A DNA stretch of 64,000 bases from Sphyrna mokarran (lineage: Eukaryota). Each line of letters begins with the position of its first letter. The first letter of the stretch is position 1. Below, piece after piece: positions 22,884 to 30,324 of the stretch. The DNA lies in NCBI GenBank assembly GCA_024679065.1, contig JAGIQG010000007.1:76942001-77006000 (forward strand). The letters run 5' to 3'. Under the pieces are notes generated by a model. It searched no databases and had not been told where the DNA came from. It worked only from the letters and a program-made list of their open reading frames with translations. The position numbers were made by a program, and so were the translations under genes.

Positions 22884-23015
22884 GTAAGAAATCTCAACAC
22901 CAGGTTAAAGTCCAACCAGTTTATTTGACTATCAGATAGTCTGTTTGAACTTTAACCTGGTGTTGTGAGACTTTTTGCTGTATCTACCCAAGTCCAACGC
23001 CGGCATCTCCTCATC
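22884..23015 (+). mobile_element. Fold-back mini-element family 1, copy A (centre deleted), 13-bp TSD
   Basis: Inverted arms CAACACCAGGTTAAAGT / ACTTTAACCTGGTGTTG, tail ACCCAAGTCCAACGCCGGCATCTCCTCATC; flanks AGGGGTTGCCTTA (22871-22883) and AGGGGTTGACTTA (23016-23028). Confidence 0.85.
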
Positions 23016-23548
23016 AGGGGTTGACTTATGCAGGACTGAAAGATCCTGCCAGTGGAAAATATCAAAGTCCTTGTGCAGCCAACCTGTGCTTTGTTTGTAG
23101 GGCCATAGAGTACAAGAACAAGGAGATTATGTTAAGTTTGGATAAAACATTTGTTAAGCCTCAAATTGAGTATTGCGTTGATTTCTAGGCTGTGCATTTT
23201 AGGAAAGATGTGAAGGAATTAGGATCAGTTCAAAAAAGATGCAAAAGAATCATTCCAGGGATGGGGGTCTTAGTTATGTTGACGGATTGGAGAAAATTGA
23301 GGAAAGATTTGACAGACATTTTCAAAATCACGAGGGGGCCTGAATAGAGTAGAAAAGAACAACAGTTCCCATTGGTGCAAGGATTGAGAATTAAAGTACA
23401 CAAATTTTAGGCAATTGGGGAAAAAAAAATGAAGACATGCAGAGAAATTTCTTCCTGCAGCCAGAGGAATGCACTGCCTCAATGTAAGAAGTCAGTAAGA
23501 ATTTAGCAACACCAATTTTAAATCCAACCGATTTATTTGGTAGTAAAA

Positions 23549-23588
23549 TTGCGAGCTTTCAACACTCTGTCGTGTCTTCGTCAGGCAA
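23549..23588 (-). ncRNA. Minimal type I hammerhead ribozyme motif (mirror copy)
   Basis: Exact reverse complement of 23602-23641. Confidence 0.65.
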
Positions 23589-23601
23589 ATGCACACTGCA
23601 T

Positions 23602-23641
23602 TTGCCTGACGAAGACACGACAGAGTGTTGAAAGCTCGCAA
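23602..23641 (+). ncRNA. Minimal type I hammerhead ribozyme motif
   Basis: TTGC-CTGACGA-A-GACAC(GACAGA)GTGTT-GAAA-GCT-C-GCAA: CUGANGA and GAAA core, stem II GACAC/GTGTT, stem I TTGC/GCAA, self-complementary AGCT in place of stem III; predicted cleavage after C23637. Confidence 0.7.
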
Positions 23642-24299
23642 TTTTACTATCAAATAAATCGGTTGGATTTAAAATTGGTGTTGCTAAATTCTTACTGAGT
23701 TCTTACTACCCCAGTCCAACACCGGCATCTTTACATCCTGCCTCAATGTGGCAGAGGCAGGTTTAACTGCGATATTCAATTGTAACATTATCTGAAGAGA
23801 GAGAATGGGCAATGTTACGGGGTGTGGAAGTTAGGGAATGGCACCATATACTTTGCATATTTAGAGAATCAACACACACAATGGGTCAAATGACCTCCTG
23901 CTATGCTATAACAATTCTGGCAATGAATCACTTTTCCAGTGGAGCTATTATTTATCAATGGATTATACATTCAGAATTATGAAACATTTATTCAACTAGT
24001 TGCCATTGCCTTTTAATCTAAGTTTCAAATCTATCTTAGTCAACTCACCTCTTATGAAATTAGCTTTATTTGCATTTAAGACCCTAGTTTTTGGACTTCA
24101 TTACATTATTCTGAACTCAGTGTAAAATCCAATCATAGATGATCATGCTTCCTCAGCCTATCCCTACCATGATATAACCACTTAACTGTCTCATTGCATA
24201 GAATTATCAGAAATGTCCTAGTGCCTCTGCACTAAATTACCACTCTTGCCAAATTCTGAACTTTCAAAGTCTGTTTATTCATATATGCTGCTCAGCCAC

Positions 24300-29267: not shown

Positions 29268-29501
29268 AGCAGAAAGAAATCCCACAACACCAGTTTAAAG
29301 TCCAAACAGGTTTATCTGTAGCAAAAGCTCCAAACTTTTGAGGCTGGGAGTTCTCAATTCCTAGCCATCTAACGAAGGGACACAGGCTGTCCCGAAAGCT
29401 TGGGGCTTTTGCTACAAATAAACCAGTTTGGACTTTAAACTGGTGTTGTGGGATTTCTTTCTGTTTTACCCCAGTCTAATGCCGGCATCTCCACATCATG
29501 A
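29268..29501 (+). mobile_element. Fold-back mini-element family 1, copy C, 14-bp TSD, hammerhead-like motif with a core mutation
   Basis: ~75-bp inverted arms (~29265-29340 / 29393-29467); CTAACGA-A-GGGACA(CAGGC)TGTCCC-GAAA-GCT-T at 29369-29401; tail ACCCCAGTCTAATGCCGGCATCTCCACATC; CTAGTTTGGAGAAA at 29254-29267 and 29502-29515. Confidence 0.9.
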
Positions 29502-30212: not shown

Positions 30213-30324
30213 ATGTGGAGGTGCCGGTGTTGGACTGGGGTAGATACGGTAAGAAATCTCACGAAGGAACAGTCGGTTCTGAAAGCTAGTGGCATTTGCT
30301 GCAAATAAACACATTGGACTTTAA
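30213..30324 (-). mobile_element. Fold-back mini-element family 1, copy D (inverted, internally deleted)
   Basis: ATGTGGAGGTGCCGGTGTTGGACTGGGGT is the reverse complement of the family tail; joined to ACGA-A-GGAAC(AGTCG)GTTCT-GAAAGCTAGTG...CAAATAAAC..TTGGACTTTAA. Confidence 0.8.

What the first reader, a model, noticed from the sequence alone, without database searches (positions are those of the whole stretch)
23484..23706. 110-bp near-perfect hairpin with an intact hammerhead core on both strands, masked by its own antisense arm
Seen: arms 23484-23593 and 23597-23706 differ at 2 positions around a 3-nt loop. The right arm holds TTGC-CTGACGA-A-GACAC-GACAGA-GTGTT-GAAA-GCT-C-GCAA. By symmetry a transcript from either strand contains the motif, always preceded by its perfect antisense. 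Inference: in ZFHX4 pre-mRNA the motif would be sequestered in long dsRNA, a built-in off switch that could explain tolerance in an intron. The hairpin is also a candidate ADAR/Dicer substrate and DNA cruciform.
Basis: partly seen in the sequence, partly recalled or inferred. Interest (0 to 1): 0.75.

Follow-up and report, generated by a model that had tools for sequence, protein, structure and literature searches.

The report
Penelope retrotransposon hairpin with dormant hammerhead
This hairpin is an ordinary young insertion of a Penelope-like retrotransposon: two head-to-head copies of its ribozyme-bearing end, likely made when both cut DNA strands were extended on one RNA, and the ribozyme is predicted to be inactive with or without its antisense arm.

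Summary
The hairpin is real: 110-bp arms, 2 mismatches, 3-nt loop, and a hammerhead core on both strands. It is a 252-bp insertion (23486-23737) with a 12-bp target-site duplication, made of the 3' end of a young Penelope-like retroelement (PLE) family. The family has 1763 exact tail matches in this genome, and long copies encode RT plus a GIY-YIG endonuclease. The shape is routine: 44 of 89 sampled copies carry an inverted arm, 39 of these lacking the last 26-42 nt; 17 have both arms of this length. The hammerhead is the known minimal type I PLE motif. It has no helix III and a G10.1-U11.1 wobble, so it is predicted to need a dimer, and no antisense off-switch is needed. The site appears empty in relatives. 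One extra is a lead. The tail ends exactly at the ORF's ATG, and 5' ends pile up 130-155 nt upstream (34 of 89), just before the ribozyme, not at its cleavage site. This suggests run-off copies of the mRNA's 5' UTR. Verdict: new member of a known kind, low to modest interest.

The parts
23474..23485 (+). Left copy of the 12-bp target-site duplication
   Evidence: (D15): 100% identical to 23738-23749
23486..23593 (-). Inverted, tail-less arm: antisense copy of the PLE 5' UTR / pLTR end from about -141 to -33 relative to the tail end (-31 if the two TSD bases 23484-85 that also pair are counted). It carries both mismatches as private changes against sister copies.
23549..23588 (-). Minimal type I hammerhead motif, minus-strand copy
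23594..23596 (+). Loop CAC. It is parent sense sequence, so the sense arm starts about 145 nt before the tail end, with 1 nt of microhomology at 23593.
   Evidence: sister copies read ...GAACAC-TGCATTTG
23594..23737 (+). Sense, tail-bearing arm: the last ~145 nt of the PLE pLTR, which in tandem copies is the 5' UTR
23602..23641 (+). Minimal type I hammerhead: helix I 23602-05/23638-41; CUGACGA 23606-12; extra A 23613; helix II 23614-18/23625-29 (closing G-U); GAAA 23630-33; palindromic AGCU 23633-36; C17 23637; predicted cut 23637^23638
   Evidence: motif definition from PMC4209133
23707..23737 (+). 31-nt unpaired PLE 'tail'. In tandem copies its last base directly precedes the ORF's ATG.
   Evidence: 14 of 29 ORF-5' loci show the tail-ATG junction; tail described in PMC8557442
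23738..23749 (+). Right copy of the 12-bp target-site duplication
   Evidence: D15

Best explanation
The hairpin is a 252-bp, non-coding insertion of a young endonuclease-positive Penelope-like retroelement, likely made by priming on both strands of a staggered target cut, and its hammerhead is a passenger predicted to be inactive here. [quoted passage not shown] Inferred: the PLE endonuclease made a 12-nt staggered cut. One 3' end primed reverse transcription at the start codon (tail end) and the other about 33 nt upstream, on the same RNA. Both cDNAs passed through the uncleaved hammerhead and stopped at -145 and -141, most likely at the 5' end of the pLTR-initiated mRNA. The two cDNA ends were then joined head to head. 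The hairpin and the antisense masking are by-products of this route, not a selected switch.
For: Family. 50 matches at 95-100% (40 of 826 candidates scored). 86 exact sites for the 36-nt core of this subfamily and 1763 for the 30-nt tail pattern, controls 0. Long copies carry RVT_1 (E 2.5e-8, above cut-off) and GIY-YIG (E 2e-4, 22.0 bits against a cut-off of 22.6). Architecture, in the first 90 tail sites of contig C1 less one segmental duplicate (n=89): 44 have an adjacent tail-less inverted arm; 39 of 44 lack 26-42 nt of tail; 40 of 44 have an 11-18 nt TSD; 36 of 89 are short hairpins; 17 of 44 have both arms ending at -130..-155 like this one. One template: the two arms of a copy differ by an indel in 3 of 25 pairs, against 73% of 600 cross pairs. 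Two primings: the tail-less arm reaches further 5' in 14 of 44, the tail arm in 10. In vitro, a PLE protein cuts and extends both strands, starts RT at two internal sites that bound the tail, and uses uncleaved RNA (PMC11167929). Pile-up: 34 of 89 tail arms end at -130..-155, against 10 and 3 in the flanking 26-nt bins; it holds for 10 of 36 copies without an inverted arm and is not explained by microhomology potential. No pile-up at the cleavage position: 0 tail arms and 3 inverted arms at -98..-102. Penelope's start site lies inside the pLTR (PMC2377424). Young and not conserved: contigs of relatives about 7% diverged join the right flank at 23744 and run on about 460 nt without the tail.
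Against: No transcription start was mapped, so a reverse-transcriptase stall or processing site on long RNA would give the same pile-up. No extra non-templated G (cap signature) was evident by eye at the junctions printed. The pile-up bin was chosen after seeing the data, so its p-values (4e-4, 1e-7) are optimistic, and ends are BLAST ends, uncertain by a few nt. Fold-back followed by asymmetric central deletion can also give arms of either length. The in vitro precedent is a Poseidon element whose ORF starts inside the hammerhead and whose RT starts lie within the ORF, whereas here the tail ends at the ATG. The empty site in relatives is inferred from contig coordinates; the letters were not shown. 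No contig spans the hairpin centre, and X1 contigs reach only 16 and 27 nt into the insertion, below the tool's 31-nt rule for bridging.
Confidence: 0.8

Rival explanations
1. Same PLE origin, but one cDNA folded back and primed on itself, stopping near the tail. Unequal arms in other copies come from later deletions at the unstable centre.
For: The arms share subfamily variants (3 of 25 pairs differ by an indel). 20 of 44 pairs end within 5 nt of each other. This copy has a 3-nt loop of parent sequence, as fold-back predicts.
Against: In 14 of 44 the tail-less arm reaches further 5' than the tail arm, by about 1 kb in L036 and L038, which a tail-primed fold-back cannot give directly. The fixed 26-42 nt offset matches the two RT start sites reported in vitro.
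Confidence: 0.15
2. The short hairpins come from a strong reverse-transcriptase stop on long transcripts, or from a short non-autonomous master, rather than from the mRNA's 5' end.
For: A small stem (TGCAG/CTGCA) lies at about -156..-138 in the parent (sequence). No cap G was evident. Ends spread over 25 nt.
Against: Junctions differ from copy to copy, which argues against one hairpin master. Density falls from 1.3 per nt to 0.12 and then 0.025 per nt beyond -155. A pLTR-internal start is known in Penelope.
Confidence: 0.3
3. One reading: the antisense arm is a functional off-switch that lets an active ribozyme be tolerated in the host intron, or the dsRNA feeds ADAR or Dicer with an effect on the gene.
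For: Masking is thermodynamically complete. The site is intronic and both strands hold the motif. A 110-bp duplex is long enough for ADAR or Dicer (own knowledge).
Against: No helix III. Single minimal PLE hammerheads showed no cleavage. Pair 10.1-11.1 is G-U. About half of all sampled copies are inverted. The copy is lineage-specific. Two older PLE hairpins in the same intron have lost or broken the core.
Confidence: 0.04
4. Assembly fold-back artefact.
For: No laid contig spans the centre.
Against: 12-bp TSD, asymmetric tail, 2 arm mismatches, and dozens of sister loci with the same plan and different junctions. X1 contigs match both flanks into the insertion with 0 differences (may be the same sample).
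Confidence: 0.01

Closest known systems
EN+ Penelope-like elements with an inverted 5'-truncated copy and a 30-40 bp tail (Craig et al. 2021, PMC8557442; passages read)
   Same: RT plus C-terminal GIY-YIG, hammerhead in the pLTR, partial tandems, inverted 5' copy, tail at one end only.
   Different: This copy is reduced to the two short arms with no ORF. The passages read do not describe a pile-up of 5' ends next to the hammerhead.
Minimal type I hammerheads of metazoan PLEs (Cervera and de la Pena 2014, PMC4209133; first 2 of 4 parts read)
   Same: Core, extra nucleotide before helix II, 4-bp helix I, palindromic stub instead of helix III. The paper also reports dual motifs about 100-700 bp apart on opposite strands and many single motifs from truncated PLEs.
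   Different: G10.1-U11.1 instead of the conserved G-C; helix II of 5 bp; the two cores here are only about 20 nt apart.
Poseidon element PAc of the green anole (Frangieh et al. 2024, PMC11167929; first 2 of 4 parts read)
   Same: Tail bounded by two RT start sites, both strands cut and extended, hammerhead not needed for insertion.
   Different: In PAc the ORF starts within the hammerhead and the RT starts lie inside the ORF. Here the tail ends at the ATG and the protein has a Neptune-type linker.
L1 twin priming (recalled)
   Same: Both nicked strands prime on one RNA, giving an inversion with a TSD.
   Different: L1 inversions join non-overlapping parts of the RNA. Here both arms copy the same stretch, which gives a palindrome.
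Non-LTR retrozymes (bioRxiv 10.64898/2026.07.22.740005; part 1 of 5 and passages read)
   Same: Short non-coding hammerhead-bearing derivatives of PLE pLTRs.
   Different: Retrozymes are direct tandem repeats that can form dimeric ribozymes; this is an inverted pair.

Membership tests
EN+ Penelope-like element | Single ORF with RT followed by GIY-YIG in the parent family | tested here: met
   RVT_1 E 2.5e-8 above cut-off; GIY-YIG E 2e-4, 0.6 bit under cut-off, C-terminal
EN+ Penelope-like element | Partial tandem (pLTR-ORF-pLTR) arrangement | tested here: met
   14 of 29 ORF-5' loci have the tail directly before the ATG
EN+ Penelope-like element | 30-40 bp tail at one end only | tested here: met
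   31-33 nt here; 39 of 44 inverted arms lack 26-42 nt
EN+ Penelope-like element | Inverted 5'-truncated copy abutting the 5' end | tested here: met
   this copy; 44 of 89 sampled
EN+ Penelope-like element | Hammerhead motif in the pLTR | tested here: met
Neptune clade of PLEs | CX2-5CxxC linker between RT and endonuclease | tested here: met
   C-X4-C-X2-C before the GIY-YIG in copies; definition (Nematis also has such a linker)
Neptune clade of PLEs | RT phylogeny groups with Neptune references | not tested
   no named reference proteins were fetched
Minimal type I PLE hammerhead | CUGANGA, GAAA and UH core, with an extra nucleotide before helix II | tested here: met
   23606-13, 23630-33, 23636-37
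Minimal type I PLE hammerhead | Palindromic stub in place of helix III | tested here: met
   AGCU at 23633-36; monomer pair probability 0.000; a cofold of two copies pairs the stubs
Minimal type I PLE hammerhead | Highly conserved (not invariant) G10.1-C11.1 pair | tested here: not met
   G-U here and in the 86-site subfamily; the wider family has CG 44, TG 15, CA 10 in tail arms
Minimal type I PLE hammerhead | Self-cleavage as a dimer or with protein | not testable with these tools
   needs a bench assay; no pile-up of copy ends at the cut site
Non-LTR retrozyme | Direct tandem units, each with a hammerhead | tested here: not met
   inverted pair; no second same-strand core in 184 kb
MITE / DNA transposon | Fixed termini with terminal inverted repeats and a fixed TSD length | tested here: not met
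   asymmetric tail, variable arms and junctions, TSD 11-18 nt, RT-encoding parent
Known microRNA or other Rfam family | Score at the family's gathering threshold | tested here: not met
   best match is generic hairpin similarity, 48 bits against 90

The most novel reading that the evidence does not exclude
Short hammerhead hairpins of this kind are the genomic footprint of PLE reverse transcriptase priming twice near the start codon of its own mRNA and running off the 5' end. Their junctions would then map the element's transcription start (130-155 nt before the ATG, just 5' of the ribozyme) and show in vivo that the uncleaved, even core-mutant, RNA is the template.
Probability: 0.45. Interest if true: 0.5.

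Novelty: new member of a known kind. Interest (0 to 1): 0.27.

Why it matters
As a single locus it matters little: it is one of hundreds of such insertions. It warns that hammerhead hairpins in vertebrate introns can be PLE debris that mimic MITEs, pre-miRNAs or RNA switches. The family statistics are more useful. PLE transposition is poorly understood, and a young family with many TSD-bounded inversions gives in vivo tests of two-site priming, of where the template ends, and of whether the ribozyme is needed.

Tried and rejected
Rfam: no hit at gathering score in the window; only generic hairpin matches up to E 10. Sequencing runs: no RNA holder listed, so expression, editing and small RNAs were not assessed. 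A>G rows come from pooled family copies in contigs and are not evidence of editing. One search used a helix I register that was off by one; one search replaces its helix I and energy figures. The first look at truncation points was biased because loci were chosen by an intact core; it was redone on tail-chosen loci. Hammerhead cleavage as the source of short templates: not supported. Microhomology as the cause of the pile-up: not supported. A cap-derived G: not evident by eye, not counted. BLAST of the two flanks against fetched loci for a continuous LINE copy: no hits. The protein atlas did not hold the exon peptide, and the PDB search did not separate ZFHX3 from ZFHX4. Earlier findings of this scan: none. 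Three look-ups for two papers found nothing held. Literature searches for a described 5'-end pile-up or run-off origin showed none in their listings. The library lacks most subscription journals, and supplements of PMC11167929 (Fig. S2) were not read and may bear on this.

Full report
Observation. The arms 23484-23593 and 23597-23706 are 110 nt and differ at two positions around the loop CAC. The fold is far beyond chance (z -31). The hammerhead-like string is at 23602-23641 (+) and 23549-23588 (-). A minimal-hammerhead descriptor finds only these two sites in 184 kb, and none in 20 shuffles of the window. The site lies between + strand exons of a ZFH-family gene. The name ZFHX4 is plausible by recall; no call separated it from ZFHX3.

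What it is. The right arm plus tail matched 50 places at 95-100% (40 of 826 candidates scored). The 36-nt core occurs exactly at 86 sites and the 30-nt tail pattern at 1763, with reversed controls at 0. [quoted passage not shown] This is an endonuclease-positive Penelope-like element with a Neptune-type linker; no phylogeny was run. In 14 of 29 loci chosen by the ORF's 5' part, the tail's last base is followed by the ATG. So the hairpin's arms are the element's pLTR end, which is also its 5' UTR.

How common the shape is. Loci picked by an intact core are biased, so I took the first 90 of 1763 tail sites, all on contig C1, and dropped one segmental duplicate. Of 89, 44 have an adjacent inverted arm without the tail, 9 have another inverted piece, and 36 have none by the script's rule, a few of which show tiny inversions by eye. 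Of the 44, 39 lack 26-42 nt of tail, 40 have an 11-18 nt TSD, and 17 have both arms ending 130-155 nt from the tail end, as here (-145 and -141). Two older hairpins of related families lie in the same intron. The plan is in print: an inverted 5'-truncated copy with a 30-40 bp tail at one end (PMC8557442, passages), and pairs of minimal hammerheads on opposite strands 100-700 bp apart (PMC4209133).

The ribozyme. The isolated arm forms helix I (pair probabilities 0.46-0.66) and helix II (0.87-0.92) but no helix III. The AGCU stub can pair between two copies. This is the minimal type I PLE motif, except that pair 10.1-11.1 is G-U. A single motif of this kind showed no cleavage and dimers little, and the anole PLE motif needed protein. 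In the full hairpin the fold costs about 76 kcal/mol, so masking is predicted, but it masks a motif that is expected to be dormant anyway. Copy ends do not gather at the cut site: 0 of 89 tail arms and 3 of 44 inverted arms end at -98..-102. Many arms carry a G8A core.

Mechanism. Shown: TSD, tail asymmetry, variable junctions, and shared variants between the two arms of one copy (indel in 3 of 25 pairs against 73% of 600 cross pairs). Either arm can be the longer: tail-less in 14, tailed in 10, within 5 nt in 20 of 44. Inferred: a staggered cut, priming on both strands at two RNA sites about 33 nt apart, and end joining. This follows the in vitro behaviour of a PLE protein. Fold-back with later deletion remains possible.

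The pile-up. 34 of 89 tail arms end at -130..-155, against 10 and 3 in the neighbouring bins. So do 23 of 44 inverted arms and 10 of 36 copies with no inverted arm. Microhomology potential does not peak there. Since the tail ends at the ATG and Penelope starts transcription inside its pLTR (PMC2377424, passages), the simplest reading is run-off at the mRNA's 5' end. Against it: the bin was chosen after the fact, no start site was mapped, no cap G was evident, and an RT stall would look alike. The listings of five searches showed no paper on this, within a library that lacks most subscription journals; unread supplements may bear on it.

Age and reality. Both arm mismatches are private changes in the left arm against sister copies. 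Contigs of run X1 match both flanks with no difference and enter the insertion by 16 and 27 nt. That is below the tool's bridging rule and may be the same sample, and no contig spans the centre. In runs X4, X7 (one study) and X16 (another), a contig about 7% diverged joins at 23744 and runs on without the tail: 460 nt in X16, and 456 or 555 nt in X4 and X7 depending on how minus-strand coordinates read. X15 had no contig there. An empty site would place a 460-nt end at about 23020, next to the older repeat that ends at 23015. This points to an empty orthologous site, though the letters were not shown. No RNA holder was listed, so editing and small RNAs are untested.

Verdict. Observation confirmed; interpretation partly supported; new member of a known kind. 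Interest 0.27. The most novel reading left open, run-off copying of the 5' UTR that maps the start site, has probability about 0.45 and would deserve about 0.5.

Noticed in passing
window 22884-23015: Older PLE hairpin of a related family (77-nt palindrome at 81%, tail, 13-bp TSD with 1 mismatch); it has no hammerhead between the arms.
   Followed up: partly
window 29268-29501: Third PLE hairpin (80% arm identity, 14-bp TSD) with a decayed core (CTAACGA) and a longer helix II.
   Followed up: partly
window 30213-30260 (-): Solo PLE tail fragment.
   Followed up: no
window about 23050-23830: The insertion sits in a decayed LINE RT fragment (frames); the CR1/L2 label is recalled.
   Followed up: no
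L099-L128, L159-L218: The core CpG reads CA in 41 arms and TG in 4, while two other CpG sites are near symmetric (12:10, 9:8) and one is mixed. Both arms carry CA in 9 of 25 hairpins. This suggests source elements with a G8A, probably dead, ribozyme kept transposing.
   Followed up: partly
window 2348-2593 (+); L223:6363-6722; L224:2216-7752; L226:3906-5399: Exon-bearing frames of a ZFH-family zinc-finger homeobox gene flank the site; three paralogue matches exist in G000.
   Followed up: partly
L100/L102 and L032/L035: Pairs of PLE loci that share flanks, that is, local segmental duplications.
   Followed up: no
window 46697-46727: A 30-nt self-complementary stretch, not inspected.
   Followed up: no
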